DNA of 63,673 nt, counting the filler, from Nemertoderma westbladi (Eukaryota; Animalia; Xenacoelomorpha), in assembly GCA_032718475.1 (NCBI GenBank). It is 4 parts of 4 records of this genome, joined end to end, with 100 filler letters (N's around TTAATTAATTAA, not from the genome) between each part and the next. Parts side by side here need not be neighbours in the genome. Positions count along the whole stretch, not along the records: positions 21,416 to 40,875 come from JAUCBJ010005567.1; 3 more parts are not named here. One strand, 5' to 3'. Position numbers and translations under genes: made by a program. This document shows, piece after piece, positions 7,719 through 59,037 of this stretch; the stretch's first letter is position 1; each line of letters opens with the position of its first letter. The notes beneath the pieces were generated by a model, which saw nothing but the letters and a program-made list of their open reading frames with translations, searched no databases and was not told the origin of the DNA.

Positions 7719-8295
7719 TGTGACGGGATCAATGGACCCCGATTTATCCGTTGGTTATTCTATTTACGCGTCCCCGCCGTGTGTGTGTAAAAGGGTTCGT
7801 TGGATTAAGAGTTCTTGATTCGCGTATGTATAATATATAACAAGCACAGTCAATAGGATCAAGTATATGATTGAATGATGTACCGGTAAATGAGTAAAGA
7901 TATGGTGGCATTGTGGACGGTAATAGAAGTTGCCGTTCCGCCCTAACTGAACTGACTAACTAAGTAAAATGAAATGGCACAACAATTGGTAATATACTAT
8001 ACTGCCCTAGGTTGGCCATATTACTCAGCGGATGCCTGCCCCCCATTGGCTAATAACTCACTTCTCACCCTCCCATCTCTCTGGGAGTGTTTCCCCTTGT
8101 TGCTATTACTCTCTCCCTCCCGGAGGTGTAACCTCTGACCCCCGCTGTGTGTGTGTGTCCCTTTGGGGTTCGTCGCCCCGTTTATTGGGGTGATACGAGG
8201 TTGATTGGCAATCAACCTCGTACTCCCAATATTGCTTAAAGGCCCTGCTTGGCCAACTTTGTGTGGGATAGTTAGCGGAATTGAATACGCTAACA
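7719..8295 (-). repeat. Element B 3' LTR
   Basis: Direct repeat of 11065-11642, adjacent to the PPT. Confidence 0.95.
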
Positions 8296-11055: not shown

Positions 11056-11064
11056 TTCTATTAC
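11056..11064 (-). promoter_or_regulatory. Non-tRNA PBS of B (GTAATAGAA), complementary to LTR site 11267-11275
   Basis: Abuts the 5' LTR; 9/9 complementarity. Confidence 0.75.
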
Positions 11065-11642
11065 TGTAACGGGATCAATGGACCCCGATTCATCCGTTGG
11101 TTATTCTATTTACGCATCCCCGCCGTGTGTGTGTAAAAGGGTTCGTTGGATTAAGAGTTCTTGATTCGCGTATGTATAATATATAACAAGCACAGTCAAT
11201 AGGATCAAGTATATGATTGAATGATGTACCGGTAAATGAGTAAAGATATGGTGGCGGTAGCGGACGGTAATAGAAGTTGCCGTTCCGCCCTAACTGAACT
11301 GACTAACTAAGTAAAATGAAATGGCACAACAATTGGTAATATACTATACTGCCCTAGGTTGGCCATATTACTCAGCGGATGCCTGCCCCCCATTGGCTAA
11401 TAACTCACTTCTCACCCTCCCATCTCTCTGGGAGTGTTTCCCCTTGTTGCTATTACTCTCTCCCTCCCGGAGGTGTAACCTCTGACCCCCGCTGTGTGTG
11501 TGTGTCCCTTTGGGGTTCGTCGCCCCGTTTATTGGGGTGATACGAGGTTGATTGGCAATCAACCTCATACTCTCAATATTGCTTAAAGGCCCTGCTTGGC
11601 CAACTTTGTGTGGGATAGTTAGCGGAATTGAATATGCTAACA
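11065..11642 (-). repeat. Element B 5' LTR
   Basis: Direct repeat of 7719-8295. Confidence 0.95.
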
Positions 11643-11647
11643 CCCGC

Positions 11648-13687: not shown

Positions 13688-14860
13688 TGTAAAAGCTTTT
13701 GCGGACATAACAAGCCATTTTTCTCCGCAATATACCGTGTAGGTATTTTAGTGGACATAACAAGCGATTTTTACCCGCTATGTCTGCATGTGTGCTTTAG
13801 CGGACATAAAAAGCCATTTTTGCCGCAATGCGCATAATACTCTAAGGACTGGAGCTCAGATGACGACATCTATCAGCTGATTTACTGTCGACATGTAGCT
13901 TTTGGTTCTTTGTTCGGCTCAGCCAGTTCGGCCAATCAGAGCGATTTTCATTTTATGTGTGCTTTAGCCTTATGATGACCGTGCTAGGCATGTCAGTGTC
14001 AGTGTTGTATTTTTCTAAGCCCAGAACACCGGCTTAGGATTCTTCTGTGCTTCTGTAGAAGTTTCAGACTTTGGCCAGAACATTAGATGGCTTTGATTAT
14101 CGAAACGTAAAACTATTACCTGACCAACTACTGAATCAATGCAACGCAACATATCAACACTGCAACACTGCACTGCTGCATTCACCGCATTATTTTACTT
14201 CTGTTATTAATTACTGTTAATTGGTGTATATTGTTGTTATATTTGGAGAACACCGATAAAGAATCATAAAACCCCCAATCTTCTTGATTACTGAAGGTGA
14301 GAGGACAGGTTACCGGTAGCAATTGCGACTTACATTATAGTGGTTTTGTGTGTATCAAATGCTATTTCATAATCCCTACATGTGTCAGTTGCTATCCTCC
14401 TTATATATGATCAAATTCAGTGACGGTCGGCAGATCAGTGTGAAGTAGTGTGAAGTCGTGTGAGGTAGTGTGACTGGTAATAAAGCATCTCCTAAAGAAT
14501 GCGCCTTTTACGAAACTCCGTAGCCATCTAGTTGTGATTAGTATAAGTCATAACTCTGTTTTATATATTTAAAGCGCCATGTCCTAAAGGAACTGTTGAT
14601 ATTTCCCCGAAAGTGAATAATATTGTCAGAGATTATATAGTAACGATCAATCGAATAATACAGTAGGTCTGCACCGCAATAAGATCAAAGCATCCGAATC
14701 CAGTCTCCCTTAACAGTGGGTGAATGATCGCGCATAGACTGGTTTCGGCTAATGTTACTTTATGTGTACTAAATATTTGTTATAGGCCAAGGTCGATTTG
14801 TAAACAAGAGGCCACCTAAAATTGGCAGGTTAAACTGCTAAAGGTCTGAAAGCACGAACA
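13688..14860 (+). repeat. Element C 5' LTR (1173 bp; three ~50-bp gcggacataa repeats at the start)
   Basis: Colinear with 18181-18970 apart from indels. Confidence 0.88.
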
Positions 14861-14871
14861 GTAATAGTTTT
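14861..14871 (+). promoter_or_regulatory. Non-tRNA PBS of C (GTAATAGTTTT), complementary to LTR site 14109-14119
   Basis: Abuts the LTR end; 11/11 complementarity to AAAACTATTAC. Confidence 0.78.
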
Positions 14872-16625
14872 GTTAGTTTCTTTATTGCACTGTAGGCAAT
14901 AAAGTCGAGGTACCGGTCAAACGGTAAGCTGTAGGCCTAACTGCCCAACTGCCCGAACCGGTACTTAAAAGGTACAACAGTATTATTCGATTTTTGATAT
15001 TTATATACCGGTAGGTCTTGATATTTAATCAGGGACGGCCGCCCTGGTTTTTTATTGGGATTTTACTTATTTCTGTCAGTCTTATTTATCTGTAAGTATA
15101 ATATTGAGCAGAGGGCGTGTAAGCCTGCTCAGATTGTATAGATAATTTGTAGGCTGGATTGTTGTCTAGCTGTTGTTAAGTTTGAAGGGATTGCAGTGTG
15201 TGTAGAGTGTATGTCCGATAAAGTACTAGTTAGGAAAGTAGGGGCATCTTGAGTTGTAAGGTAAATCCCCCCCGAAAGAATAAGTCGTACTACTCGGTTA
15301 GAACGCATACTAACTAACCATTTCGGAGTCTGCATATACTGTAGTTTATTTAGGCTTGACAGTAGTCTGCCAGCATTTGGTCTGTATTTTGTTTGTATAG
15401 TCTGCACGGGTAGCGTAATATTTATTATTCAGAGTTTATGCAAGTATTCGCAACCTTCAAACTCCCCCAGTTTATTCCTACAGTAATTGTGCTTGTTATA
15501 CATACCGTTATAGTTAAATTAACCCCGGTACTACATCAGGGCTGCTTGGCGTAGGTAAAGACTGGTGATTTTATGCTCTAGTCACTCCAGCAGATACCGT
15601 AGTTCTTTAGCTGTTCAAGTATATTTAACTGCTGGTTATTTGTTATATAAGTACTTGTACCTAATCTAATATTTTCCGAAGGTAATTTAGTTTGTAGGCA
15701 GTATATTTGTGTTGTAAAGTGGTTAATAGGCACGTTAGCTCTGGTTGGCTGCGGTAATTAACTTCTAGGTAAGGACACTCCGGGTACATAACGTAGTACT
15801 TATAGTGCTGTAGAGCAAAAAGACTATAAGTCGTCAGACGGTGGTAATTTCTTATCTGGACAACACAGTGTATTTACTACTGCTTAATTATTTTCAAATA
15901 CCGTAGTATCCTGTCAGTTTGTAATAACCAGAAATTCTAACTCCTTGTTAGACTGGTTTGTAGATTCCCTGTAAAACTACCCTAAAATATGTACGTGTAA
16001 TTTGTCATTGTTTATTTAGAGATTGTAATCTCACCCCATAATTGTAAGTAATTAGTAGTGATAAGTAACTTAGTAAAGTAGAATTATTTGTTTTAGTGTC
16101 CAACAGGTAGCACTCCACTGAGAGCGTTTAGCTTCTGTGTAGTGACCCCCTTAACCAGAAATAATAACATTTATTTCAAATATTGGCAAAACCCTTGTAC
16201 GGGTACAAATATATTATAAATCAATTCAAACCGATTTATAAAATAGTAGGCCTGTTATACATTAATTAGTTCTTAATATCAGTTGGGCTACTGCTTAATA
16301 ACAGTAATAAAGTAAAGGAAAGTAACCTTTAAATTCAGAAATTCAGTTATTATAAAATAATTAACATTACCGGTATTTAAGGTAGGCTTATTATATATAT
16401 TTATAAATCTAGGCTGAAATTATATACCGGTATTCTGTAACTAAACCTAGTTTGTAACAATACTTATATATACTATAAGTGTATACCGGTATTCTAATAT
16501 AATATATATCGCGTTACATTGAGTAATGGTATCGGTAATTGATCATTAGGCTTACAGTGATACTGAATTACTAGACTTGCTTTAACTGTCGTTATAATAG
16601 TAGGCATTCAACTGTATAATCAAGC

Positions 16626-18103
16626 ATGGCTGACAAAAGGCAAACTCTGTCAGATAGTCTCCTAGAAACAACTGTCTGCGACTCCGACAGGAGTATTGAA
16701 CGTTTGACACCGAAGTTCAAGTCCCCTCCTACTGTAAGAAAGGTCATCCCTCCAGTAGTAGTATCAGATCCTAGACTAGTAAAGCACCGTAGGTCTATCA
16801 TAGGCACTCGGGCTCAAGTCAAGCAAGAACAAGAGGCAGCTGTTAAACAGCAGCAACATCCGAACCAAGAACTTATTTCTCAGCGGACCGATAGCTCCAG
16901 TAGTTCAGATACTGTGGAGTTGACGCCCGAGATCGGAGCAGAGATAGCAGAGGCGGTTTATTCGGATCCCCTTCTCATTCTTCCTGAAGCTGTATTCACT
17001 AGGGTATTGATTGCGGTGGAGGAACATCAAATCGATTGGGCGAGAAGTAAGCGATCAACTAAGGACAGTTATGCGGGATACACGAAGGAGGAACTGAAGT
17101 CGATTGTCAAGACGCAATGGAACTTCCCCGGACCCGGACTCCCGTTTAACTTATCGGAAGCTGCCTGTAGCCGCCTCCCGTTTAACTTATCGGAAGCTGC
17201 CTGTAGCAGCCTGCCTGTAGCTGCCTGCCGGTGCCTGAGGATGGGAGTGGTAAATTGGAGATCTATTGTGCGTATTGTAGACTCAATAACTTACACATCT
17301 TCGCAGTCTGCCCTCAATTTATGACTCAATGCCATCATTGCCAGTTTAAAGGACACACAAGTTTCGATTGCCCTTTCAACCGAGATCTAGAAAGTGTAGA
17401 CGAAATGGTTGCCCTTCACTATATTCTTGCCTGGGAAGCTAACGCAGATCTCCATTGCGAATCACGTCATCGGTACTACCCTGGACGTGCCTATGAAGGA
17501 GTCTATGCGTTTCACCCATATCTCTTTGCTTCGGTTGAGCAAAAATCTCGCACACCTAGTTACGAGTTAATGAAGCGTGTTGGCGAGAATATTTCGACCA
17601 AATTTGTTCGCAAGTACCTTAGGAATATTAATCCTAACGACCTTAATTCCTATAACTTGATCAACTTCATCCGTCAAGATCCTGAATATGGTGACTTGTG
17701 CATCAACTCGCATCCAGAACTACAAGAAGTTCATAGACGACCCTATGAATATAGAGCCCGAGAACGCGAGTTGGAAAGAACCATCAAACCGAGGAAATTT
17801 CTCACTACTCATGGTCCGCCTACCGCTCTCGTGCAAATGACCCGTCAGGGACCAGTAAGAGCTGCTGTCCTGAAACGCGCTCTAAAGGTTGTTCGACCTC
17901 ATTCCACTGAGGTTGATATCGATCAACCGGGTACCTCAACCGGCGGATACACCGACCGTAACCCTAAACCTTCCGATGCAATTGTATTGCACCCCTCACC
18001 CAGGAGTTATAGCCCTCCTAGTAAAGTGGCTCGCCCCAAAGAGAAAAGGACTCTTACTAGCCTCAAAAAACTTCGTAAACGCCGTTCACATAAGAAGGAC
18101 TAA
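16626..18103 (+). pseudogene. ORF-Z homologue (~475-487 aa if repaired) with double CCHC module; split by a 14-nt duplication
   Basis: ORFs 16626-17324 and 17231-18103 join in frame if one ctgcctgtagc.gc 14-mer is removed; YCAYCRLNNLHIFAVCPQFMTQCHHCQFKGHTSFDC; basic C-terminal tail. Confidence 0.8.
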
Positions 18104-18180
18104 TAGTTTAGAGTATTTTTGTATTTTAGAAACTGTGATTTTTATATTTTATAAACTTAAATCCCATTTTCGGGGAGTGG

Positions 18181-18970
18181 TATAAAAGCTTTTGCGGACA
18201 TAACAAGTCATTTTTCTGCAATGCGCAGAATACTCTAAAATAGCCCTGAATTTGTCCAACTACGCGACGGGAAGGAATTGGAGCTGGTGTGACGACATCT
18301 ATCAGCTGATTCTCTGTGGACGTGGAACTTTTCTTTGTTCTGCCTATTCAGCCAATCAGAGCGATTTCCCCCCTTATATCTGACAGAGGCCTATGGAAAC
18401 TCGCGCAATCTTCTTGATTACTGAAGGTAAGAGGAACAGGTTTACCGGTAGCAATTGCAACTGACATTATAGTGGTTTTTGTGTGAATTAAATGCTATTT
18501 CATAATCCCTACATGTGACAGTTGCGATCTTCCTTATATATGATCAAATTTAGTGACGGTCGGCAGATCAGTGTGAAGTAGTGTGAAAGATAATAAAGCA
18601 TCTCCTAAAGAATGCGCTATTTATGAAACTCAGTGGCCATCTAGTTGTGATTAGTATAAGTCATAACTCTGTTTTTATACTTAAAGCGCCACATCCTAAA
18701 GGAACTGTTAATATTTCCCCGAAAGTAAATATATTGTCAGAGATTATATAGTAACGATCGATTGAATAATACAGTAGGTCTACACCACAATCACTATCAA
18801 GGAATCCGAATCCAGTCTCCCAAAACCGTGGGTGAAAGGTTGCGCACAGACTGGCTTCGGCTGATTAACTCCAGTACACTAAGTAATTGATATAGGCTAA
18901 AGTCGATTTATAAACAAAAGGACAACTAAAATTGGCAGGTTAAATTGCTAAAGGTCTAAAAGCGCGAACA
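18181..18970 (+). repeat. Element C 3' LTR (790 bp, internal deletion, diverged)
   Basis: Homologous to 13688-14860 but lacks about 13975-14275. Confidence 0.88.
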
Positions 18971-20269: not shown

Positions 20270-20422
20270 GTATAATACAGTAATAGACACCATCGCCACC
20301 GTTCCGGGTTTAATAGACTCTGTTGCCATCGTTCCGGGTTTAATAGACTCCGCCGCCATCGTTCTGGGTTTAATAGACTCCGTCGCCATCGTTCTGGTTT
20401 TAATAGACTCTGTCGCCATCAT
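20270..20422. repeat. 30-bp tandem repeat, ~5 copies
   Basis: Unit gggtttaatagactccgtcgccatcgttcc. Confidence 0.9.
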
Positions 20423-21315
20423 TCCTTTTAGAAGTAAAAGTGTCTGAGTCTGTACTCCCAGATATTCCCATTGGCGATATCTCCTTTGCAGAAGTGAAGG
20501 CTGCTGCAAAGAGCATTAAGACCAATCGTGCCAGTGGAGTAGATGGTGTTCCCCCTGAGGTCTTTAAAATACCTGAGTGTTTAAAGCTCATCTATCCCAT
20601 CATAGTAGACATGTACCGTACAACAAGAGTCCCACAAGAAATGAAAACAAATAAGTTGGTGCCAGTTCCCAAGAAGGGCAACCTAACACTCTATGGTTCT
20701 TTTCGGGGAATCTCATTGATCTCGATTGCTGCAAAACTATACAATAGAATTCTATTAAATCGCATCAGGGATCCCATTGAGAGACTGCTACGTGGAAATC
20801 AGAATGGGTTCCGTAAAGGTCGTGGGACCATGGAGCCCATTTTGGCACTTAGAAGGATAATTGAAGAGTTATCAAAAAAGAAAGACAGGCATCTGGCTGT
20901 TATCTTTGTTGACTTCTTCAAGGCCTTTGATTCAGTCTCTCGCTCACGTATGTTCAGCATACTTTCATTATATGGGATTCCTGATGAAATTATTGCAGCA
21001 ATCAGATCAGTATACGATGGTTCGACAACATTTGTGTCTACTGTTGACGGTGACACAGAACCATTTGAAGTGTTATGGGGCGTCCTCCAAGGAGACACAC
21101 TTGCACCATTCTTGTTCATAATTGTGGTTGACTATGTTCTACGCATGTCCTTAGATCATCATAATGATGATGGGGTGATGATAACTCCACCTACTGGCTC
21201 CAGAAGTCGAGGAAATCCTGCCAAGTACCTAACTGATCTAGACTTTGCTGATGACTTAGGAGTACTCTCAGAATCATTAGAGGGAGCCCAGCGGCTCCTC
21301 AGCTCATTAGAACAT
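20423..21315 (+). mobile_element. RTE-clade LINE reverse transcriptase core, open frame, truncated by gap
   Basis: RASGVDG, PVPKKGNL, RGISLIS, NQNGFRKGR, FVDFFKAFDSV, GVLQGDTLAPFLF, DLDFADD. Confidence 0.95.
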
Positions 21316-21415
21316 NNNNNNNNNNNNNNNNNNNNNNNNNNNNNNNNNNNNNNNNNNNNTTAATTAATTAANNNNNNNNNNNNNNNNNNNNNNNNNNNNN
21401 NNNNNNNNNNNNNNN
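21316..21415. other. Assembly gap with artificial TTAATTAATTAA linker
   Basis: N44-TTAATTAATTAA-N44. Confidence 0.97.
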
Positions 21416-21825
21416 TAACAAAGTATTTCCTAAAGAATACGCTTTATACTTTAATCATAAGCAGTATCGTTGCGTCTTAGTATAAGTCTTAGTTCTGTTT
21501 AAATAGATAAAGCGCCACGTCCTAAAGGAACTGTTAATATTTCCCGAAAGCCAATAATATCTGTCAGAGATTAATTATTAACGATCTATCGAATAATACA
21601 TTAGGTATACACTGCAACCTTACACTGTAATAATACAATTCAAGCATCCGAATTCAGTCTCCCGGGTGTAGATCCATCGGGTGAATGATCGCGCATGGGC
21701 TGACTTCGGCTAATGTTTTGCGTATTAGCATAAATTATTGTCGTATGCTAAAGTGGTTTTAATTAACTAAAAGACATATAAATTTTGGCAGGTTAAACTG
21801 CTAAAGGTCTTCAAAAGCGCGAACA
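21416..21825 (+). repeat. 3' part of a C-family LTR (solo or 3' LTR)
   Basis: cctaaagaat..aaagcgccac.tcctaaaggaactgttaatatttccc..ggcaggttaaactgctaaaggtct..aaagcgcgaaca; not followed by GTAAT. Confidence 0.88.
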
Positions 21826-23500: not shown

Positions 23501-23524
23501 GCCGCGGTGTCACTTATGACACCC

Positions 23525-23828
23525 TTTGCACGGCTTTGCGACAGTTAGACCTCACTGATGACCCATTGTGTGTCAGGGCGCTAATCAGTCTGATTAATTA
23601 GGATAATCAATTAAACCCTAATTAGGAGTCGTAAGGCACCTATTAGGGTTTAATTGTACTAATTAATTGATGCCACCTATCAATTTGGGTCTAATTAGCC
23701 TATTTGGGAGGTGTCACCCAGACAGTCTGGCGCCAATGACACCCAATGACACCCTACGGGTGATAATAGGGTGTCATATGACACCCAATGGGTGTCAGTG
23801 AGGTCTAACTGTCACAAAGCCGTGCAAA
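23525..23828. mobile_element. Fold-back/MITE-like element with ~50-bp inverted arms
   Basis: 23525-23575 tttgcacggctttgcgacagttagacctcactga.. is inverted at 23779-23828; internal hairpin aattaaaccctaat/attagggtttaatt. Confidence 0.75.
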
Positions 23829-23903
23829 CCTATACTACTGACGGTGCAGGGCTACCAATTTCATTCGGAAGTTGAAAGGGAAGTAAGAAGGGGAAAGGAA
23901 AGG

Positions 23904-24470
23904 TGTTAGCTTATCCAATTCCGCTAACCAACCCATAAAGTGAGGTTTTAAGCAATATTGGGGAACACGAGGGTGATCAATCAACCTCGTGTCACCCCAA
24001 CAAAGTGGGAGGGAGAAACATACACACAATAGAGGTCAGGGGTTACACCCCTGAGAGAGAGAGAATAGCAGGGGCGAAGGGAAACACTTCAGGGGAGGTG
24101 AAAGGGCGACAACAGGGTTATTAACCAATGGGGGGAAGGCACCGGCTGAGTAACGTAACAATGGCCAACCGTGCAGTATACATTATCAGTACAGTGTATC
24201 ATTTAGTCAGTGTGTCATTTTAGTCAGTGTATAGTTAGGTTAGTTTAGCTAGGGAAGTACCGGGACTTTAATTACCGTCCTCATTACCCGTCCTCCATTT
24301 ACTATCAACATTGTGTATCATTTATCTATATCAGCTATATTTCATCTTATATTATATTATACCCGGGAAGCTATATACAACGATCAATAAACTCTTTCAC
24401 CTTTCACACACGGCGGGGACGCATGGATTGAAAACCGGATAAACCAGGATCCTTCGTGGATCCCGTCACA
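23904..24470 (+). repeat. Element A 5' LTR
   Basis: Direct repeat of 34410-34976. Confidence 0.97.
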
Positions 24471-24479
24471 GTAATTAAA
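24471..24479 (+). promoter_or_regulatory. Non-tRNA PBS of A (GTAATTAAA), complementary to LTR site 24267-24275
   Basis: Abuts the 5' LTR; 9/9 complementarity to TTTAATTAC. Confidence 0.75.
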
Positions 24480-24539
24480 CCCGCGAGTGATTGAATCGGA
24501 GCTGCTACCCTAGTTAACTAAACTCGAGATAATAACAAG

Positions 24540-27500
24540 ATGAGTCAACCAGAGGGAATGACACCGCCTGGACCCCGGACGGAGACCTAACGATCCGCGA
24601 GGCCGTGACGAGATGGTATGGACCCACGACGCTGGTCGATACCACATCGACCACGTCGACGCTGGTCGATGCCACGTCGATAACGAGCGAACCGGCGACC
24701 CAAGATGAGGGGGACCGTCTACGAGTAGAGGAAAGCGAGTCGAGAGAAGAGGAAAGCAAGTCGAGAGGAGAGGAAAGCGAGTCGAGAGAAGGAGGAGACA
24801 AGACGGGAGAGGAGAAAGACGAGTCGACGCGGAGCGAGGGTCGACATACCAATGTCGCCGGCCAGCCACAGGCCGAGGGCGACGGACGGCCCACCGGAAC
24901 AGCAACGGTGGGGCCGCCGGACCCGGAGAGATGGGGGAGAGGTTGGCGACGAGGACGTCGGGGTCAGCGATCAACTTCAACGGGCCTACAATGCGACCCG
25001 GAAACTACTTAAAGAGACCAAGGAAGGGGCCGAGATAGACCAGGTGAAGTTAAGGAGAAGACTAGGTGAGTCGAACGAACATTTTAGTTATCTAATGCGC
25101 TTTGGGCAGAGAGAACTGGCCAAGGAGAGAGCGAGAGGGGTTGCCAACGAACTGTATGATTTATGGGAGTGTAGGGGTATGCAGCCTAGTGTAGTGTACA
25201 TAGGGCCATACTTAGTCGATGCCCGGGGAGTAAAATTAGCGGGTTGGAGAAGACCTGAGGAGGGCGAATCCGAGGTTAACCCCGAGGATTCGGTCTCATC
25301 GGTCGGAGAGAATTCCGGTTCCGGGAGGCGGGGGAGAGTTAGTAGGACGGGAAGGCGGAGAGAATCCGTCACAACCGATAAGTCTGCTACATCCTCCGTA
25401 AAAGAAAGACGGGTGAGGGAAATAAATGCGGCGTGTCATCTTGAACTGATAGCGCAAGACCAGAGAGAAGTAGAGAGACAGTTGGAGGAGGGGAAAGCGC
25501 TATTAGAGAAAGAAATGGAACTGGTTAGAGAGACTGGAGAGAGGGCCGAGAGAACCGCAAGAAGCTTCAGGGAGTGCGAGGAAATAGGGAGGAAGGAACA
25601 AGAAGAGCGTGAGGCGAGAGAGGAGAGTGAGCGTAGGGAGCATGAGGCGAGAGAGGAGAGTGAGCGTAAAGAGCGCAGGGCGGAACGTAAAGAGCGCGAG
25701 GCGAGATGAGTGGAGAGAATTGAGAGAGAGAGGGAATTGGCCGAGCAGAGTCGGGAGACAATAGCAGAGGGGAAGCGTGTGCGGGATGCTTTACATGCCC
25801 GCCTAGGGGGGCTAATTCAGTACCAGACCAAACAGAAGCGCAGACTGAAACTGGCCCAGATGGGGCTGTCAGAGAGTGGCGCTGGCTCGAGTGCTTTCGA
25901 GGAGCAAAGGGTCGAGGGAACATTTATTAGTACCCCACTTACAGGAACCGCACGACAGACCCGAGACTGGTGTGACCGTACGGGCGGGGGGGGTAATAAT
26001 AGTACTACAGTAGATGACGTTAATATTAATAGTACTGTATTGGATAATCCTAACCAAACCTTTATTGCAGGAAATACTTTACCTAGTAGTAGTAGTTTAA
26101 ATTTAAATACAAATAATCTAAATAATAATTTCAATTTAAACGTGCAAAATAACCCGAATAGTAATTTAAATTTAGAAAATAATAATAATCCAAATAATTT
26201 AAATAATCCAAACCCGAATTTACAGAACGATTCAAATAGTGTAGTCGCGCAAAATAATTTAAATGATTTTATTTCGAACGAACAAAATGATTCCGTTTCT
26301 GATATGGGTGCTATTAACGTGGACGCGTCGGAGGTGTATGACCGACAGACGGCGGCCTAGTAGGCCACGTAGTTAGTAGGAAGGGGGCGGCGGGGTTGAG
26401 CCGACCCGACGGCGGCCTGGTAGGCCACGTAGTTGGTAGGCAGGGGGTGGCGGGGATGAGCCAACCCGAAGGAGGCCTGGTAGGCCAGGTAGCAGTAGAG
26501 AGAGAAGCGGGGGTGAATAGACCTAGCCGCAGTAGAAACACTGTGTCGACTGGAGAGGGGTGCAGAAGTGAAGTAAGAGGTAGCGGCGTGATATGTGGCG
26601 AGTGGGGGGGGGGGCTACAGGAGCCCCGCAACGAGAAGTTAGTGGCAAGCGGGGGGGCTACAGGAGCCCCACAGCGGGAAGTTAGTGGCGAGAGGGGGGG
26701 GCAGAGAGTGTCCCACAGGCGTCGTCGGATAATGCGCGGGCCGAATCAGGTATACCGCAACACCCAGCGACGGAGAGTAATAGGGGGATTGCGAGTATCC
26801 CCAGCAGGGTGTGATCGAGCAGAGAGAGGCAGGTTGACGTCGCGAGAGGGCGGACAGAGCGCCGAGCCCGATCAGAAGAGGGGAGGAGAATAGTGGAGTT
26901 TAACCGGGGGGTCGACGAGAGATCTCACGAGCCGGAATACTGCACTGAAAAGAGAAGAAGAGAGGATAGTAGGAGAAGTATCGCCGCGAACGATAGGAGA
27001 GCGAGGACGGATAGGGAGCCGTCGGTAGTCGAGATGGAAAGAGAGCCATGCTGGCAGAGACAATGTAGGCGATAGGATAGCGAGGGCGATGGGATTAAAC
27101 CCGGAAGTCGCGGAATACATACCGGTAGGTAGGCCAGAAGCTGATAGGCCCATACCGGTACCAGTGCAGCAGTATGACTACAGCACGAAAGGACATAACA
27201 TATACCCAGGGGAGGGGGGAATTATTGCGGATAGGTGCATGGGCCCCAATATATTAACATCAACCCCAGTACCAAACATACCGGTGGGGGGGGGGACAGG
27301 GTGACATTCCCCCATCACAATATCAACAATATACCCCAATAGGAGCAAGAACAACGAACCCCTTGGATAAAAATAGGTCATGCGACACAGAAATATGGAG
27401 GGGGCCGCTACCCCCAATGATATACCCAAGCCAGAGGAAGGCAGGAAATAGGACGGACGGACCGCACCCAACAGGAGAAACTATGCAACATCCATCGAAC

Positions 27501-28066
27501 CCATAGGAAGCACAGGCGATGGGAATGGCCACGTTAATCGATGCGCTAAAAACTAGGATCGAATTACCACCCGTGGAACTGTTCAAATTCGATGGGAGTA
27601 GGCTGGAAGAATACCTACAGTTTCGGCGCATGTATAGTAACGAAATACTAACAAAGAACTTGACGCAGGCGGAGTGCCTAAAGTATCTGCAAGTATATAC
27701 AGGAGGCCCAGCATACGACATCGTGAGGCAATACCAGGGCATAGAGGGCGGCTTCACGACAGCATGGCGGGCACTGGACAGGGAATACGGGCACCCGGCC
27801 AAGATCATCCGGCAAACCCTGAGAGGCATAACATCGGGTGGCCTACAGGATAATCCTGTTAGTATTAAGACGTTCGCAAACAAGGTCGAGAAGGCGCTAA
27901 TCGTACTAAAGACGCTAGACGCACCATACGAGCTCAACGCGTCCAACAACATCACCACGATAGCGCAGGCACTACGCAACAAGCTGTACAATGGCTTCGC
28001 AACAAGTGGAGGAAAATCGCTTTCTCCACTCGAGATAGAAAGGGTGCGGAACCGGGTCTAGAAGAA
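24540..28066 (+). pseudogene. Element A gag: long low-complexity/coiled-coil N-terminus, then DUF1759-like capsid region; stops and frameshifts
   Basis: E/R-rich and poly-N segments; ELPPVELFKFDGS..EYLQFRRMY..AWRALDREYGHP. Confidence 0.88.
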
Positions 28067-31000
28067 ATGTCGAGCTTCTTAAACTACGAAGCCGAGTTAA
28101 TAACCGACCCATTCTATAGCGAGGATAGCCTGGGAAAGGGACCAAGAACAGATTACCATAGACCGAAACCAGAACACAACACGTCAAACGCATTGCCGAA
28201 GCTCAGGCAATCACTGCCATACGCAGCGACGCAGGGGACTGCTAGTCCACAGGTAGCCGGGGGTAAGACCACATCATGGAGCAGACAGGGGAAAAATAAC
28301 AACACAAACAAACATGACCCTAGTACGCCCAGTAGGCCGAACCCAAACAATAAGAATAGTAGGGACTTTGGTACAAATGCAATCGCAATATGCAATGCAT
28401 TGTATAAGGACGGATACGACCCAAAGAGCAAATGCCAGCTACATACAAATGCGCTTCATCAGACCATGAACTGCAGGTACTGGCAAGCATTACCCAGTGA
28501 AGATCAGGTAGAATACGCGGCGAGAAATGAGATCTGCTCGCGATGTGTGATGAGTGGACATAGAGCTAGACAATGCGAGGAAACGCCGATTAAGTTCGGT
28601 CAAAGTAAAGGCCAAATGATGGCAACGAGCACAGTAGGGGCGAAGAAGAGAGGAATTGTGCTACTTGGGGTAGTACCAGTGCGAGTGATCGGGGAAGGCA
28701 ATCGATCAGTGACCACACTGATGCTGGTCGACAGTGGAGCTGCCTTCACATTAGTCGAGAATTGGGTGGCCGAGGAGATAGGATTGAGGACAAGGCCAAG
28801 TAGGATGGCGGTAACAACAATCTCCAGCAAAGATGAGATCCTGGAGATGAGAACCGGATGGTGCGCGATAGCAGCAATAGCACCGGGATGCGACTATGGG
28901 GCGAGCATCGACCCCATCCAGGTGATAGAGTCGATAAACATCAACACCAGGCGACCAACAAACATCGAGGTCGAGCAATATAAATTCCTGGACAGTATCG
29001 ATTTCTCAATCCCAGAGGTGGACGTTAGGAAAGTGTCCATCATAGTAGGAATGGACTGCCAGACGGCCCACGAGAGAATGCAAACGGTCTTCGGCGAAGA
29101 CAGGCAGTGTGACCCGGTGGCGATTTTAACACCATTCGGGTGGACACTGAGCGGCCCAATCAAGAGTAAGATACCATTTAGGATGTCGGAGACATCAGGA
29201 TGCATGTTCGCGGGAACTATGCAGGAAATGGGTGATGAGAGAGCGGAGGAGCAGCTTAGGAGACTGCTCAGACAGGATTTTGAAGGATTAAAGGAGACCG
29301 GGGTCGGAACCTCGGTAGAAGACAAGCAGGCTCTACAGAGCGTAAAGGAGTCTATGAGGTGTGATGAGGGGCGGTATACCATAGGGATGGTATGGAAGCT
29401 ACCGAAGCTACCGCTACCCGATAATAGAGGGATGGTACTCACGAGGCTTCGTAAGTTGAAGCAGACTCTAAAACGGAGCCCCGAGAAGAATGACAGAACG
29501 ATTAAGAAGTACGTCGAGAAAGGATGGGCCGTGGAGTTACCGGTCGACGAGCCAAGCATGGACAGGACATATTACCTGCCACTCCACGTGGCTTTAGATC
29601 CGAAGAAAGGTAAACTGCGGATGGTAGTTGACGCATCAGCTAAAACCAACGGCAAATGCCTAAACGATTATCTGCTGGAGGGTACCAATATCTACAACTC
29701 GGGGATCGAGGTCCTACTTAGATTCAGGAATGGGAAACATGCCTTCACCTGTGACATAGAAGGCATGTTCAACCAAGTCCGTGTAACAGAAGAGGATAGC
29801 GATAGTCAACGATTTTTATGGTACAACGGCGACGAAGAACCGTCGACCATACTGGTGTACAAGATGATAGTACAGAACATGGGAGCCAAGTCGTCTTCGT
29901 TCACGACGACTATGGCTGTAAGAGACACAGTAAAGGGAAAGGAGGATAAATACAGCACTAGGGCCGTCGATATGATTCGACGCGGCTTCTACGTAGACGA
30001 CGGGATTGAGTCTGGAAACACGGTTAAGGAACTACTGGACACAGGGCGCGAGGTTCGCGACATCCTAAAAGGATCCGGCTTTAACCTAACCAAATTCCAA
30101 TCCAGCTTGGAGGAATTTATCAAGGCGATAGAGGACGAGAGACCAGAATCGACCATGGATAATCCCACAACAGCCAAGGGGCAGGACATGGCGAACAAGA
30201 GGATAGAGTCTCAGCAGAAGGCACTGGGAATCGTGTGGAATAGAGAGACAGACGAACTGAAGTACCAGTTGAGACAGGAGGGCGCAGACATCCACACAAA
30301 GAGGGGCTATGTGTCGTACATAGCAAGGATATACGATCCCCTAGGCCTAGCATCCCCACTACTAGTCACGGGGAAACAGATACTCAAGAGAGTATACAAA
30401 CTGAAGGATGAGTGGGACGTAGAAGTACCAGAAGAGATCAGGAAACAGTGGTGCAAGTGGACAGAAGGTTTGGGGCAGATGGGAACATACAGCATGCCAC
30501 GAGTGTATTTCCCGGATGGGGACATGACGAACCTGGATCTGCACATGTTCTCCGATGCGTCACTAGAGGCATACGGAGCGGCACTCTATTTAGTACAACG
30601 AGGCTACGTGGCTGCGAGGCTAGGAGTTAGGGCCACAGCCTACATAATGGACGCTATTCCCAACATAGTGGAGACACACTACTGGACGGATTCCATGGTA
30701 GTGCATGGCTGGCTACATAACGAGAAAACGAGATACCCTATATTCGTCGCAAATAGAGTGGACGAAATAAGGGCGACGACAGAACTAGAAAGGTGGCACT
30801 ACTGCCCTACGGACGAGAACCCTGCGGACTTGTTATCGAGGGGTGTGGCACGCCACACTTTCTTAAAAAAGGAAGTATTGTGGCAACATGGGCCACAGTT
30901 TCTGAGCGACAAGGAGGCCTGGCCACCGATGAGAAAGGTGGACCCGGGCTCAGGAGAAGCAGTATTAGGGGGAGAAGAGGGAGATTCAGAGGGAGAAGAG

Positions 31001-32473
31001 ATATACTCCCAGATGGTGAGGGAGATAAGGGACGTGCAACCAAAACCAGGAGAACTGTGCGACAACCCAACGGATAAACTCCTCAGCTATAGCTCTAGTT
31101 GGTATAAGACCAAGAAATTAGTGGCGTACTGGAGAGCCTTCGGGAATTTCCTCGCGGGAGTTGGCAAAGACGTAAAGACTAGGACAACAATAGATCTGGA
31201 AGGAGCGTCCAAAGCAGTCATCCGCTATGAACAACGGAAGAACTATGGCGACGAGGTGGAATGCGTCGGTAAACAACAGCATCTCCGACGGGACAGCGAG
31301 CTGATCACGCTGTTACCACAACTTAATAATGACGGGATTCTAGTAATGAACTCTAGGGTGGGATACAACAACAGCATCGTCGTACCACCGAAGCCCATCA
31401 TCATCCCCACAGGATCGCCGATAGTCTACCAGATTATCTGGGACTCCCACAAGTCGATATTGCATGGGGGCACCAACCGAACCCTCACGGAGATACGGAG
31501 GACCTTTTGGGTCAAACAGTTGAGGAAGAAGGTAAAAGCGGTAGTGGGGCAGTGCCAGACCTGCCGACGAGCGAAGAAGGAGCGAGCCATACAGGAGATG
31601 GCACCACTACCGGCGAGTAGGGTAAGACAGCACGACCCACCATTTACGCATTGCGGTGTGGACATGTTCGGGCCAATACAGATCAAGGTGATGCGGCACA
31701 CGGAGAAACGCTACAGTATTATCTTCGTATGTAACAACACGAGGGCAGTATGGATAGAACTCGCCCAAGATGCAACTGCATCAGCATTCATTAATGCCTT
31801 AGAAAGGTTCAGAGACCGCAAAGGGGGGACGATCGCAGTAATATACTCCGACAACGGAATCAACTTTGTGGGAGTGGAGAACGAGATGGCAGAGGCCTTG
31901 GAGGTCTTGGAAGGGGAGGAAGTCAGGGCAGCCATGAGACGACGACAAATAAAGTGGGAGAGGAGGACGCCGTATGCACCACATACCCTAGGATGCGTCG
32001 AGAGACTCGAGGGTAGTTCGAAGTGTCTTATGATGAAGTTGATGAACACCCATATGGTTACGGAGGACGTGCTGAGAACAGTACTTGCGAAGTGTGAGGG
32101 TATCATTAATAGCAGACCGCTATATCCAGAGAATGATGACCCTGAGTCACTAGACGTGCTGACGCCCAGCCATTTCCTAATGGAAAGGCCAGCGACCATC
32201 GACATGCGGGGTGTAGACCCAGATGACATACACTCCCGCCAGTGTTGGAAAGTCGCTAAGGCGATAAGCGCAGAGTATTGGAGGAGGTGGGTTGAGGAAT
32301 ACCTACCCACGCTTCACAGAAGAAGCAAGTGGAGGAACACGAACAGAGAGTTAAGAGAGGGTGATCTCATGATCGTTACGGATGATACAATCATCAACAA
32401 CCAGTGGCGGTTGGCGAGAGTCATAGGCACTTACTCCGATGAGGACGGAAGAGTCCGATCGGTAGAAGTGTGA
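28067..32473 (+). CDS. BEL/Pao polyprotein (CCHC, aspartic protease, RT, RNase H with deletion, integrase)
   Basis: CSRCVMSGHRARQC; LVDSGA; YYLPLH..KLRMVVDASAK; CDIEGMFNQV; FYVDD; FSDASLEAYG; YWTDS; NPADLLSRG; GVDMFGP; SDNGINF; WRRWVEEYLPTL; premature stop at 32473, native end near 32557. Confidence 0.95.
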   Translation: MSSFLNYEAELITDPFYSEDSLGKGPRTDYHRPKPEHNTSNALPKLRQSLPYAATQGTASPQVAGGKTTSWSRQGKNNNTNKHDPSTPSRPNPNNKNSRDFGTNAIAICNALYKDGYDPKSKCQLHTNALHQTMNCRYWQALPSEDQVEYAARNEICSRCVMSGHRARQCEETPIKFGQSKGQMMATSTVGAKKRGIVLLGVVPVRVIGEGNRSVTTLMLVDSGAAFTLVENWVAEEIGLRTRPSRMAVTTISSKDEILEMRTGWCAIAAIAPGCDYGASIDPIQVIESININTRRPTNIEVEQYKFLDSIDFSIPEVDVRKVSIIVGMDCQTAHERMQTVFGEDRQCDPVAILTPFGWTLSGPIKSKIPFRMSETSGCMFAGTMQEMGDERAEEQLRRLLRQDFEGLKETGVGTSVEDKQALQSVKESMRCDEGRYTIGMVWKLPKLPLPDNRGMVLTRLRKLKQTLKRSPEKNDRTIKKYVEKGWAVELPVDEPSMDRTYYLPLHVALDPKKGKLRMVVDASAKTNGKCLNDYLLEGTNIYNSGIEVLLRFRNGKHAFTCDIEGMFNQVRVTEEDSDSQRFLWYNGDEEPSTILVYKMIVQNMGAKSSSFTTTMAVRDTVKGKEDKYSTRAVDMIRRGFYVDDGIESGNTVKELLDTGREVRDILKGSGFNLTKFQSSLEEFIKAIEDERPESTMDNPTTAKGQDMANKRIESQQKALGIVWNRETDELKYQLRQEGADIHTKRGYVSYIARIYDPLGLASPLLVTGKQILKRVYKLKDEWDVEVPEEIRKQWCKWTEGLGQMGTYSMPRVYFPDGDMTNLDLHMFSDASLEAYGAALYLVQRGYVAARLGVRATAYIMDAIPNIVETHYWTDSMVVHGWLHNEKTRYPIFVANRVDEIRATTELERWHYCPTDENPADLLSRGVARHTFLKKEVLWQHGPQFLSDKEAWPPMRKVDPGSGEAVLGGEEGDSEGEEIYSQMVREIRDVQPKPGELCDNPTDKLLSYSSSWYKTKKLVAYWRAFGNFLAGVGKDVKTRTTIDLEGASKAVIRYEQRKNYGDEVECVGKQQHLRRDSELITLLPQLNNDGILVMNSRVGYNNSIVVPPKPIIIPTGSPIVYQIIWDSHKSILHGGTNRTLTEIRRTFWVKQLRKKVKAVVGQCQTCRRAKKERAIQEMAPLPASRVRQHDPPFTHCGVDMFGPIQIKVMRHTEKRYSIIFVCNNTRAVWIELAQDATASAFINALERFRDRKGGTIAVIYSDNGINFVGVENEMAEALEVLEGEEVRAAMRRRQIKWERRTPYAPHTLGCVERLEGSSKCLMMKLMNTHMVTEDVLRTVLAKCEGIINSRPLYPENDDPESLDVLTPSHFLMERPATIDMRGVDPDDIHSRQCWKVAKAISAEYWRRWVEEYLPTLHRRSKWRNTNRELREGDLMIVTDDTIINNQWRLARVIGTYSDEDGRVRSVEV

Positions 32474-32664
32474 ATAGGTGGCAAGATAGGTGCGAAAAAC
32501 AGGAAGACCTACAGGAGGGCTGTAGGGAAGTGCTGTCTACTAGAAGGGGCACCTTAGAATGGAGTTAGAGAGGAGTTTAGTCGTCCACGTTTTGGACTGA
32601 GGGGGGTGGGATTTAGGGCGAGACGCCCTTCCCACACATAAAATAAAAATAAAATAAATAAAAA

Positions 32665-32716
32665 TTAGAGTCAGAGTTAGTTAGTTAGTTAGGAGGTACG
32701 TAGTACCGAGAGTTAG

Positions 32717-32790
<74 letters not shown>

Positions 32791-33400
32791 GAGTTAGTTA
32801 GGAGGTACGTAGTACCGAGAGTTAGAGTTAGTTAGTTAGTCAGGAGGTACGTAGTACCGAGAGTTAGAGTTAGTTAGTTAGTTAGTTAGTTAGTTAGGAG
32901 TTAGTTAGGAGGTACGTAGTACCGAGAGTTAGAGTTAGTTAGTTAGGGGGTACGTAGTACCGAGAGTTAGAGTTAGTTAGTTAGTTAGGGGGTACGTAGT
33001 ACCGAGAGTTGGAGTTAGAAGTAGTAAGAGGGTACGTAGTACCGATAGTTAGTGGAGTTGGAAGTAGTAAGAGGGTACGTAGTACCGATAGTTAGTGGAG
33101 TTAGAAGTAGTAAGAGGGTACATAGTACCGTTAGTTAGTGGAGTTAGAAGTAGTTAGTAAGAGGGTACGTAGCACTGTTAGTTAGTAGAGAGAGTTAGTG
33201 GAGTTAGAGGAGTTAGTAAGAGGGTACGTAGTACCGGCTAGTAAGAGTAGAGTTAGAGGAGTTAGTAGGGGGGTACGTAGTACCGGTTAGTAAGAGTAGA
33301 GTTGGAAGTTAGTAAGAGGGTACGTAGTACCGGCTAGTAAGAGTAGTAGTTAGTTGTAGAACTAGTTAGTAAGAGGGTGCATAGAGCACCGTTAGTAGTA
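32665..33400. repeat. Compound (TTAG)n / ggtacgtagtacc tandem array inside element A
   Basis: Pure (TTAG)n at ~32718-32790; repeated gaggtacgtagtaccgagagttag units. Confidence 0.93.
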
Positions 33401-33529
33401 AGAATTAGTGATAGGGGGGTATAAAATAGTATATAGTAAGAGATAAAAGAGCACAATATATCATAGAAGTAGTAGCCAGAAAGGTAGGTAGGGTTAGTAG
33501 CACAAAATTTAAAATGAAAATTAAGGATA

Positions 33530-33760
33530 TTAGAATCACCTCCGAACTACAGAAGAGCCTTCAAGGCGGCCTTCAAAGGTCTGGTAGAACACCTGGGGCT
33601 GAAGGGCGAGTCGGTGTAATACGCCAGCCAGCATCTAGTAGACAGGGAGGTGGATAGACATCACATGGGCTGGAAGTGGATAGATATGGGGAGAAGCGAC
33701 TGGAAGAAGTCGCCAGGGGAGAAAGGCCGAGAGAGAATGAGGCGCGTTATGTAGACGAGC
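33530..33760 (+). pseudogene. Remnant of the ORF-Z N-terminus downstream of pol in A
   Basis: SPPNYRRAFKAAFKGLVEHLGLKGESV*Y..LVDREVD matches SPLSYRKAFKTAFEGLVDHPGLKGESVYY..LVDRDVD of B. Confidence 0.85.
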
Positions 33761-34409
33761 ATGTAATATAATATATGATAATAATAGCCTTATAATAATT
33801 ATATAAGTAAACCACGTATGTATATTATAAAGTACGTACCGTAGTCAAGCACAACCTTTTCCAATTAGCTACTGGGACTGGGGACTAATCGACCATGGTA
33901 CTGTAAGTCACGGACGAGACGCTGACGACATCATACTTCTTGAGTGCGACGGCACGAAAGGGGGGTGAGGCTCGTCAGAAATGAGAGGGTGAGATAGGGC
34001 GAGATACGAGTAATAGAGTGTGGAGTGCGGAGTGTGGAGAGAGTGTGGGCGCAATTCAAATGTGGGGGGGGGGGAAGTAAGAGGCGGGGTGAGGGACAAG
34101 GAGGTCCGAGAGCGTGTGAGGGCTAGGGTGAGAGTGGAGGAGAGTTAGGGCGAAAGTGTTGGGGAAACAAAAATTGTGTGAGAGAAGCGCACGATCAGCC
34201 CAACACGGGACACCACATGTCTTGGTACAAGATAGGTAGAGTTGTACCAAGATGGGGTAGCATTATCATACCCATAGGGAGCGGCCTGGAAAGCCGACCC
34301 CAGGAAAATAGGCCCACCCCACACCCGATACTAGATCGGGATCCAGCGGAATTGTAGCGCACTAGAGGTGGATGCTATCTTCTCACCGGGAAGATAGCAT
34401 GGGGGGGAG

Positions 34410-34976
34410 TGTTAGCTTATCCAATTCCGCTAACCAACCCATAAAGTGAGGTTTTAAGCAATATTGGGGAACACGAGGGTGATCAATCAACCTCGTGTTA
34501 CCCCAACAAAGTGGGAGGGAGAAACATACGCACAATAGAGGTCAGGGGTTACACCCCTGAGAGAGAGAGAATAGCAGGGGCGAAGGGAAACACTTCAGGG
34601 GAGGTGAAAGGGCGACAACAGGGTTATTAACCAATGGGGGGAAGGCACCGGCTGAGTAACGTAACAATGGCCAACCGTGCAGTATACATTATCAGTACAG
34701 TGTATCAATTAGTCAGTGTGTCATTTTAGTCAGTGTATAGTTAGGTTAGTTTAGCTAGGGAAGTACCGGGACTTTAATTACCGTCCTCAATACCCGTCTT
34801 CCGTTTACTATCAACATTGTGTATCATTTATCTATATCAGCTATATTTCATCTTATATTATATTATACCCGGGAAGCTATATACAACGATCAATAAACTC
34901 TTTCACCTTTCACACACGGCGGGGACGCGTGGATTGAAAACCGGATAAACCGGGATCCTTCGTGGATCCCGTCACA
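34410..34976 (+). repeat. Element A 3' LTR
   Basis: Direct repeat of 23904-24470. Confidence 0.97.
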
Positions 34977-37516: not shown

Positions 37517-37539
37517 GTGAATTCCCGCCTAGGCTGGTT

Positions 37540-38500: not shown

Positions 38501-38518
38501 TGCTGTTATAGATAAGAT

Positions 38519-39307: not shown

Positions 39308-39496
39308 GTACATGTAATAATATGTTGTACTGGAGAACCAGACCAACGGTTTCTAGCATTATACAGTATGTACAGACTGTAGAACACGCAGTGGTGCTAA
39401 TTTGCGTTCTATCTGGTAAACTGTGTCAAATTTTGGACCTTCGTAACCTTACATCGACTGTACTGTTAGTAGTTACTATACTGTAGTTTGTTTACT

Positions 39497-58394: not shown

Positions 58395-59037
58395 TGTGAC
58401 GGGATCAGAGATCCCGACCGGATTGGTAAAGTATGCGTCACCGCTCTGCTGGGGATCGTGCTGTTAGCTTTGGCCGAGGCCGACTGAGAAAACAGTAGAA
58501 GTTCCTGTTGTCTTTTGATATTAGGAAATATAGGCAATAATAGCACAATGTATGATTGAAAGCAGAAATACAGATAAATTGTCACCGGTATCGCAGTGGC
58601 GGTCATTTACTATGACTGGTCTGCACTAAATAAACTGAATAACACGACTGACCTGTAAACCAGTATTGTAGGATAATATATGATTAATACATAGAATATT
58701 GGTTCACCTTCTTACTCTACTTTGGCCCTTTACCCAATGGATGCTTTCCTGTTCCCTATCACGTGCTTCCCTCCCCACTATTGGCTAATATACTACTTGT
58801 CACCTTGGCACTCTCTGGGAGTGTTTCCCCTCCGCTTCTAGCGGAGGGGACTAGCTGCCTTCCATCCGAGGTGGTTTGACCTCTCACCTTTCTCTGTGGC
58901 TTGGGGCTTGTGTCGCCCCCCGAATGTTGGTTATGATACGAGATTAATATTGGTAATCTCGTATCCCCAACATATTGCTAAAATGCCACTAGTCCCATTT
59001 TCTGGTGGGTAATGAAGTGTAATTGAATCCGCTTACA
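58395..59037 (-). repeat. Element D 3' LTR (643 bp)
   Basis: Ends TGTAAGCGGATTCAATT.. / ..GATCCCGTCACA on the minus strand, homologous to the A and B LTR termini. Confidence 0.88.

What the first reader, a model, noticed from the sequence alone, without database searches (positions are those of the whole stretch)
24267..24479. Self-priming signature (no tRNA PBS) in a BEL/Pao retrotransposon, with covariation across three elements
Seen: the 5' LTR of A ends ..GTCACA and is followed directly by GTAATTAAA, not TGG. Its exact complement TTTAATTAC lies ~200 nt upstream inside the LTR (24267-24275). Homologous element B has PBS GTAATAGAA (11064-11056) and LTR site TTCTATTAC (11275-11267) at the equivalent position, so two compensatory substitutions keep 9/9 pairing. 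C, whose LTR shows no evident homology, has an 11/11 pair. All three putative primers end ATTAC and are followed by C. Known: Tf1/sushi-group Gypsy elements prime by annealing the mRNA 5' end to the PBS, and RNase H then cleaves off the primer; BEL/Pao elements are generally described as tRNA-primed. Inference: this BEL/Pao lineage self-primes, which would be an independent origin. I know of no description of this but could not check the literature.
Basis: partly seen in the sequence, partly recalled or inferred. Interest (0 to 1): 0.93.

Follow-up and report, generated by a model that had tools for sequence, protein, structure and literature searches.

The report
Self-priming BEL/Pao jumping genes
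Two related jumping genes in this animal genome lack the usual tRNA landing site and carry instead nine letters that pair with their own terminal repeat, so they likely start copying themselves with their own RNA, and in many distant relatives the matching letters exist only if an intron is cut out of the repeat, which would make host splicing the builder of the primer.

Summary
Elements A and B are confirmed. Both have no TGG after the 5' LTR, and each carries a 9-nt site complementary to its own LTR, with two compensatory changes. A is BEL/Pao, but this copy's gag and RNase H are broken. Element C fails: its site is missing from its second LTR and it has no pol.

The trait is not peculiar to this lineage. 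In 16 of 45 related BEL/Pao families from metagenome contigs the primer site pairs over 10-12 nt with the element's own LTR, against 10 of 2250 non-cognate pairs. In 13 of the 16 the match appears only after removing a GT..AG intron from the LTR. One family occurs with and without exactly that intron, and the published element Sinbad shows the spliced pattern (read by eye).

Best reading: Tf1-like self-priming, usually with a splice-assembled primer; A and B are an intron-less form. No RNA data were available, the start site is untested and A's place in the tree is unresolved. Ten paper searches found no description. This scan has noted the same thing on other genomes.

The parts
23899..23903 (+). 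Target-site duplication of element A (AAAGG; second copy 34977-34981)
23904..24470 (+). 5' LTR of element A (567 nt, TGT..ACA)
24261..24264 (+). CGGG, could pair with CCCG 24480-24483 as a second helix beyond a 2-nt AC bulge (predicted)
   Evidence: family-wide permutation p 0.02; absent in B
24267..24275 (+). Putative self-primer 3' segment of A, exact complement of the primer-binding site; same in the 3' LTR at 34773-34781
24413..24417 (+). U5 GCGGG, predicted to pair with 24480-24484 and leave the primer-binding site unpaired; competes with the second helix
   Evidence: pair probability 0.97-1.0; overall fold not better than shuffles, z -0.81
24447..24463 (+). U5 hairpin just before the LTR end, also present in B and E with different letters (predicted)
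24471..24479 (+). Primer-binding site of A, directly after the LTR, no TGG
24540..27868 (+). gag region of A, interrupted by stops and frame changes; DUF1759 in 27507-28058
27869..32473 (+). BEL/Pao pol reading frame (protease, RT with YVDD, RNase H with an in-frame gap of about 28 residues, integrase, DUF5641)
34400..34409 (+). Polypurine tract of A
34410..34976 (+). 3' LTR of element A
11065..11642 (-). 5' LTR of element B (non-autonomous, 73.9% identical to A's LTR)
11267..11275 (-). Putative self-primer segment of B, two changes against A; same in the 3' LTR at 7928-7920
11056..11064 (-). Primer-binding site of B, two compensating changes against A
7719..8295 (-). 3' LTR of element B
14109..14119 (+). 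Element C: 11-nt complement of 14861-14871, in a segment absent from C's other LTR; doubtful
58395..59037 (-). 3' LTR of a fourth relative, E; the aligned site (58610-58602) differs again and predicts a different primer-binding site outside the window
   Evidence: prediction not testable here

Best explanation
Elements A and B are BEL/Pao-type LTR retrotransposons whose primer-binding site is the exact complement of nine letters in their own LTR, and they likely prime minus-strand DNA synthesis with that piece of their own RNA instead of a tRNA. Shown: the pairing, its position directly at the LTR end, the compensatory changes, and the same arrangement in many relatives, where the complement is mostly split by a GT..AG segment. 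Inferred: transcription starts a short way upstream of the site; the 5' end folds back onto the primer-binding site; the element's RNase H would cut after the terminal AC to free a 3' end, as in Tf1; reverse transcriptase extends into U5; plus-strand copying of the attached primer would rewrite the primer-binding site, which explains the exact match. In relatives the primer would be assembled by splicing the LTR intron near the cap, while the 3' LTR copy mostly escapes splicing; when it does not, an intron-less family arises (L002 against L004). A and B have the contiguous form; whether they lost such an intron is not shown. Copy A itself could not do this unaided, since its RNase H region has a gap; B has no pol.
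For: No TGG and 9/9 pairing in A and B with two compensatory changes. 0 of 7 relatives whose LTR end is fixed by a repeat boundary have TGG in the next 8 nt; combined p 1.9e-5 for contiguous matches. Junction-spanning matches of 12, 11, 11 and 15 nt in L001, L034, L049, L055, reached by 0 of 300 shuffles each. Own-LTR match of 10 nt or more in 16 of 45 families against 10 of 2250 non-cognate pairs; 13 of the 16 exactly 11 nt. Exact loss of a 168-nt GT..AG segment between L004 and L002, 90.5% identical internally, same primer-binding site. Sinbad shows an 11-nt match across a 35-nt GT..AG segment (by eye). The two TGG-type loci L067 and L071 score 5. An A two letters before the paired stretch in 14 of 16 elements, A included.
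Against: The A and B duplexes are short and weak (-5.0 and -7.7 kcal/mol); in nested folding their probability is 0.00-0.18 for A and 0.00-0.87 for B depending on the ends chosen. They are 9 nt where relatives have 10-15, and no GY..AG removal lengthens them. The U5/leader folds are no better than shuffles (z -0.81, +0.67). C fails in its second LTR and D shows no match. 29 of 45 families gave under 10 nt; many lack a full LTR, L055 is missed by the rule, two are TGG-type, but the rest were not resolved one by one. The rule was shaped on the same loci. An unanchored contiguous scan had no power (28 of 49 against 27 of 49). A lies on a long branch, 36-37% identical to its nearest rows, and is not placed with the self-priming group.
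Confidence: 0.85

Rival explanations
1. The pairing is a regulatory or packaging fold of the leader RNA, and priming uses something else, such as a tRNA half, another host small RNA or a protein.
For: Half-tRNA primers are known in plant Copia lineages (PMC6317226 passages). The 9-bp duplex is weak. Host tRNAs could not be compared: no genome is held and the window has 0 tRNA genes.
Against: The paired stretch starts 0-5 nt after the LTR end, where the primer must sit, and begins with GT in A, B and all 16 hits (a condition of the rule; seen without that condition). Each family's site matches its own LTR and almost never another's, which a shared host primer would not give.
Confidence: 0.08
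2. A and B self-prime, but by an origin separate from the splice-assembled group; the likeness to those relatives is convergence.
For: A is a long branch outside the starred 14-row self-priming set; the TGG-type L067 is about as close (path 2.5 against 2.42). 9 nt instead of 11, and no intron.
Against: The data do not reject one group holding A and all self-priming rows (p-AU 0.43), though they do not show it. Shared details: GT start, AC just before the paired stretch, offset 0. This rival concerns origin only and is compatible with the mechanism above.
Confidence: 0.3
3. The A and B matches are chance or remnants with no function.
For: 0.5% of CA positions in the window reach 9 nt. A and B are homologous and both defective.
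Against: Exact double compensation about 1e-3 on top of p below 0.013 for each match; site kept in both LTRs; no other primer site present.
Confidence: 0.03

Closest known systems
Tf1/Tf2/Tj1 and the Tf1/sushi group (Ty3/gypsy chromoviruses)
   Same: Primer-binding site complementary to the element's own LTR transcript, no tRNA; neighbouring duplexes around the site (the three-duplex 'pretzel', PMC10085805 passages; PMC4600332 passages). An 11-nt primer for Tf1 is recalled, not read.
   Different: Different superfamily: A has Pao-type domains. In most relatives the complement is split by an intron, which the passages read do not mention for Tf1. A and B pair over 9 nt. Cleavage and start site are shown for Tf1, only inferred here.
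Plant Copia TAR lineage (Houba, Osr-1) and Gypsy Tcn1
   Same: Self-priming predicted from an LTR-complementary site (PMC6317226 passages), so a second origin outside Tf1 has been proposed before.
   Different: Copia or Gypsy, plants; that survey asked for at least 10 contiguous bp, which A and B (9) and most spliced forms would miss.
Belpaoviridae (BEL/Pao), ICTV profile 2021
   Same: LTRs, PR-RT-RH-IN order, polypurine tract, animal host (PMC8742986 whole text).
   Different: The profile gives an 18-nt site for tRNA-Arg or tRNA-Gly and a 4.2-10 kb genome; A has no such site and is 11.1 kb.
Sinbad of Schistosoma mansoni and the Sailor lineage (Sinbad, Sparrow, Surcouf)
   Same: Sinbad's published sequence has no TGG after the LTR and an 11-nt match to a spliced LTR junction (PMC554778 supplement 1, whole); the main text has 0 occurrences of PBS, priming or tRNA.
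   Different: A is contiguous, 9 nt, and far from all relatives found. Sinbad itself was not in my trees, so the clade name for the loci is an inference from host range and PMC6238403 passages.

Membership tests
BEL/Pao (Belpaoviridae), element A | Paired LTRs TG..CA with target-site duplication and polypurine tract | tested here: met
BEL/Pao (Belpaoviridae), element A | Pao-type domains in the order gag (DUF1759), PR, RT (YVDD), RH, IN, DUF5641 | tested here: met
   all 120 listed homologs carry PF05380
BEL/Pao (Belpaoviridae), element A | 18-nt primer-binding site for a host tRNA 3' end (ICTV profile) | tested here: not met
   no TGG in the 8 nt after the LTR; this trait describes the family but is not what its classification rests on
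BEL/Pao, element C | Pao-type gag or pol domains | tested here: inconclusive
   no Pfam family; only a CCHC-type frame 37.5% identical over 40 aa to one in B; Atlas hits below 0.9
Tf1-type self-priming mechanism | Primer-binding site complementary to the element's own LTR, covarying | tested here: met
Tf1-type self-priming mechanism | Complement lies at the 5' end of the transcript | not testable with these tools
   no RNA holder listed; TATA at -31 in 1 of 19 elements
Tf1-type self-priming mechanism | Two further duplexes flanking the primer-binding site | tested here: inconclusive
   predicted for A, weak for B; fold energies within shuffles
Tf1-type self-priming mechanism | RNase H cleavage frees the primer | not testable with these tools
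   biochemical; copy A's RNase H region has a gap
Tf1/sushi group (membership) | Ty3/gypsy chromovirus RT and integrase | tested here: not met
   A has Pao-type domains, no chromodomain hit
Splice-assembled self-primer group (Sinbad-like) | Complement spans a GT..AG junction in the LTR | tested here: not met
   A and B best junction match 4-5 nt; met in 13 of 45 relatives
Splice-assembled self-primer group (Sinbad-like) | RT groups with the self-priming relatives | tested here: inconclusive
   (p-AU 0.43)

The most novel reading that the evidence does not exclude
A large aquatic branch of BEL/Pao retrotransposons, Sinbad included, has dropped tRNA priming and builds its primer with the host spliceosome: an intron inside the LTR must be removed from the 5' end of the RNA to create the 11-nt primer, yet kept in the 3' copy to be inherited. 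A and B are a far-diverged, intron-less form of this system.
Probability: 0.65. Interest if true: 0.9.

Novelty: new variant of a known kind. Interest (0 to 1): 0.8.

Why it matters
The ICTV profile describes BEL/Pao replication as tRNA-primed and poorly understood. Self-priming has been shown only in Tf1-type Gypsy elements and predicted in one plant Copia lineage. A self-priming BEL/Pao branch would make the switch between tRNA and self priming a repeated event in all three retrotransposon superfamilies. The splice-assembled form ties the first step of reverse transcription to host splicing, gives a natural on/off control, and is testable with existing RNA data of hosts such as schistosomes, fish or sea anemones. 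It also explains why primer-site finders, which ask for TGG or a contiguous 10-nt match, would return nothing for these elements.

Tried and rejected
No genome held, so no family-wide phased test and no host tRNA set. No RNA holder listed; this says nothing on expression. Contigs of 4 runs laid on 23850-24800 were short and unphased; the variant table was cut (40 rows shown, 97 not) and showed no row at the site or the primer-binding site, so covariation could not be read from it. A motif scan of metagenome contigs for this family found 0 stretches; viral contigs gave no relative. Unanchored contiguous scan: no power. Whole-fold energy of U5 plus leader: not significant for A, B or C. TATA spacing as a start-site test: 1 of 19. 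Splice extension in A and B: none. Element D (gag start near 3640, minus): no LTR end or match found. L067's 11-nt hit at its start codon does not follow an LTR end and was treated as chance. L006 was wrongly labelled contiguous in the tree; it is spliced. L026 was labelled TGG without a fixed LTR end and was left out. The first tree run did not finish. Three primary Tf1 papers are not held. PMC6934838, PMC9873768, PMC3118150, PMC8220671, PMC4558846, PMC9094657 (passages or term counts) gave nothing on BEL/Pao priming. Host taxon: pecanex-like 4 is about equally distant from all animals listed, so only 'long-branch animal' can be said.

Full report
Anatomy. The window is repeat-rich animal DNA; no genome is held. 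Element A runs from 23904 to 34976 with 567-nt LTRs, 559 of 567 identical, a 5-bp target duplication and a polypurine tract. Its long frame 27869-32473 carries protease, RT with YVDD, RNase H, integrase and DUF5641, with DUF1759 upstream, which makes it BEL/Pao. Its best relatives are only 30-36% identical. This copy is defective: gag is interrupted and the RNase H region has an in-frame gap of about 28 residues against 10 homologs. Element B (minus, 11642-7719) is a non-autonomous relative with its own target duplication; its LTR is 73.9% identical to A's. E (3' LTR 59037-58395) and D (gag start near 3640) are further relatives cut by the window ends.

The observation. A's 5' LTR is followed directly by nine letters whose exact complement lies at 24267-24275; B shows the same at the aligned position with two changes on each side that keep all nine pairs; both sites are kept in the 3' LTRs. 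A 9-nt complement occurs at 37 of 7313 CA positions; anchored nulls give p 0.003-0.012; the exact double compensation has a chance near 1e-3. C, which I take to be the LTR ending at 14860, has the 11/11 pair, but 752 nt away in a segment that its second LTR lacks; that LTR offers 5 nt only, the two LTRs are 87% alike, there is no target duplication and no pol. C may be a related case with a recombined or deleted LTR (its CCHC frame resembles one in B), but it is not a witness.

Structure. The duplexes are weak (-5.0 and -7.7 kcal/mol) and their nested-fold probability depends strongly on the ends chosen. In A a U5 segment is predicted to pair with the five letters right after the primer-binding site and leave that site open; this crosses the primer duplex, so nested folding cannot show both. 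A U5 hairpin before the LTR end occurs in A, B and E with different letters. This resembles the three-duplex fold described for Tf1 (PMC10085805 passages), but the folds are no better than shuffles, so I give it little weight. Contigs from four runs (696, 1097, 528 and 38 laid) cover the site region and U5 plus primer-binding site far more than the stretches between and after, and several leave A at 24472-24483; they are short and unphased and the depth is no copy number.

Relatives. An alignment of A's RT-RNase H with 15 homologs fetched 79 loci from metagenome contigs, the best of 478 confirmed; six checked with Pfam have Pao-type domains. Seven had an LTR end fixed by a repeat boundary; L029 and L067 were left out because their repeat match stopped inside the LTR. 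None of the seven has TGG in the next 8 nt; contiguous own-LTR matches were 11, 11, 9, 7, 7, 6 and 5 nt, combined p 1.9e-5. The short matches began right after a pyrimidine tract and AG, with a GTAAG-type donor upstream. Removing the segment gave 12, 11, 11 and 15 nt in L001, L034, L049 and L055, reached by 0 of 300 shuffles each; L037 and L069 are contiguous; L076 gives 11 only at an offset of 5, found afterwards. A rule-based test (LTR-like end, 0-5 nt, GT; contiguous or spliced match) was run on 45 families: 29 of the 79 loci were dropped for lacking the 5' region or an open gag-RT frame, 5 as identical copies, and two start codons were set by hand. It gave 10 nt or more in 16 of 45 (13 spliced, 3 contiguous; 13 exactly 11 nt) against 10 of 2250 non-cognate pairs. 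The rule was shaped on these loci, but the control used the same rule. Of the 29 misses many lack a full LTR, L055 has a changed first letter, and L067 and L071 have TGG a few nt after an LTR-like end (which tRNA was not tested); the others are unresolved. L002 and L004 are 90.5% identical inside, share the primer-binding site, and differ by exactly the 168-nt GT..AG segment: this is the footprint expected if the segment is an intron that was spliced and then copied back. Because the junction does not exist in the DNA of the spliced-type elements, the partner of the primer-binding site must be processed RNA (inference). In the published Sinbad sequence (PMC554778 supplement 1, both parts, read by eye) the LTR ends at 386, and letters 391-401 are the complement of the junction made by removing 199-233; a 35-nt intron fits the very short introns of schistosomes (recalled). 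The paper has no mention of PBS, priming or tRNA.

Start site. The letter two before the paired stretch is A in 14 of 16 elements and A shares this. Letters upstream of the stretch pair with letters downstream of the primer-binding site better than in permuted pairs (mean -4.5 against -3.2 kcal/mol, p 0.02; no single element but L068 significant; B none). A TATA box at -31 was seen in 1 of 19.

Tree. Self-priming loci are spread through an 86-row group of a 96-row FastTree (support 93) that holds proteins from fish, echinoderms, a sea anemone, a fluke, molluscs and crustaceans; L067 and L071 lie outside it. A is a long branch, unplaced; one group of A and all self-priming rows is neither shown nor rejected (p-AU 0.43). 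No outgroup was used and Sinbad was not in the tree, so 'Sinbad-like' is an inference.

Mechanism, most likely (0.85): fold-back of the 5' end onto the primer-binding site, cleavage after AC by the element's RNase H, extension into U5, and rewriting of the primer-binding site from the attached primer. Pairing and covariation are shown; start site, cleavage and extension are inferred from Tf1 (PMC5341516, PMC4600332, PMC11042837 passages). That the intron is spliced near the cap but mostly kept in the 3' LTR is an inference needed to explain its inheritance.

Literature. The ICTV profile (PMC8742986, whole text) gives tRNA priming. PMC6317226 (passages) lists self-priming for Tf1/sushi and Tcn1 and predicts it for Copia TAR. 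PMC3601003 (passages) names only chromoviruses. Ten searches (listings and abstract starts) showed no description of self-priming or a spliced primer in BEL/Pao. The library lacks most subscription journals and Repbase; supplements other than Sinbad's file 1 were not opened and could bear on this. This scan's index holds seven earlier notes from other genomes with the same reading, two with the splice junction; I looked them up after and did not check their loci. No notes exist for this genome.

Verdict: real for A and B, not for C; a new variant of a known kind; interest 0.8.

Noticed in passing
window 41962-45816 (-): Uninterrupted 1284-codon frame for a pecanex-like 4 protein, about equally distant from all animals listed; suggests an intron-poor gene in a long-branch animal.
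   Followed up: partly
window 11644-13687 (+) and flanks: Broken Gypsy-type gag-pol fragment (CCHC, DSA, RT, RNase H hit) into which B and C are nested.
   Followed up: partly
window 13688-18970 (+): Element C: LTR pair 87% alike, 1.7 kb AT-rich leader, frames at 16620-18103 with two CCHC-like knuckles and a basic tail; a third partial LTR at 21416-21825. Superfamily unknown.
   Followed up: partly
window 9444-10115 (-): Frame inside B with a CCHC knuckle similar to C's, not found in A.
   Followed up: partly
window 34370-34400, 8330-8305 (-), 59075-59045 (-): A conserved inverted repeat directly before the polypurine tract in A, B and E.
   Followed up: no
window 32473-34409: 1.9 kb after pol in A with tandem GTTA-type and 43-nt repeats; A is 11.1 kb, long for BEL/Pao.
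   Followed up: no
window 24234-24253, aligned in B and E: Conserved block of TTAG/TCAGT repeats 14-33 nt before the self-primer site; could be initiator or splice-acceptor elements.
   Followed up: partly
L001, L007, L008, L049, L068, L069, L076: Spacers of 2-5 nt between LTR end and primer-binding site go with a GGGGCCGG-like tract plus spacer before the 3' LTR, while spacer 0 goes with GGGGAGCCA in the loci where both were seen; may reflect extra terminal letters on the cDNA.
   Followed up: no
window 54951-55754 (+): CYTH-domain frame.
   Followed up: no
window 20407-21363, 48749-50530, 56193-58067: Non-LTR-type RT fragments.
   Followed up: no
window 23505-23835: Fold-back element with long inverted ends just before A's insertion site.
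   Followed up: no
window 37424-38501, 39377-40931, 4501-5152, 54088-54461: Minisatellites with 22, 24, 68 and 22-23 nt units.
   Followed up: no
window 21316-21415, 40876-40975, 55703-55802: Assembly gaps (N runs around a short AT-rich linker).
   Followed up: no
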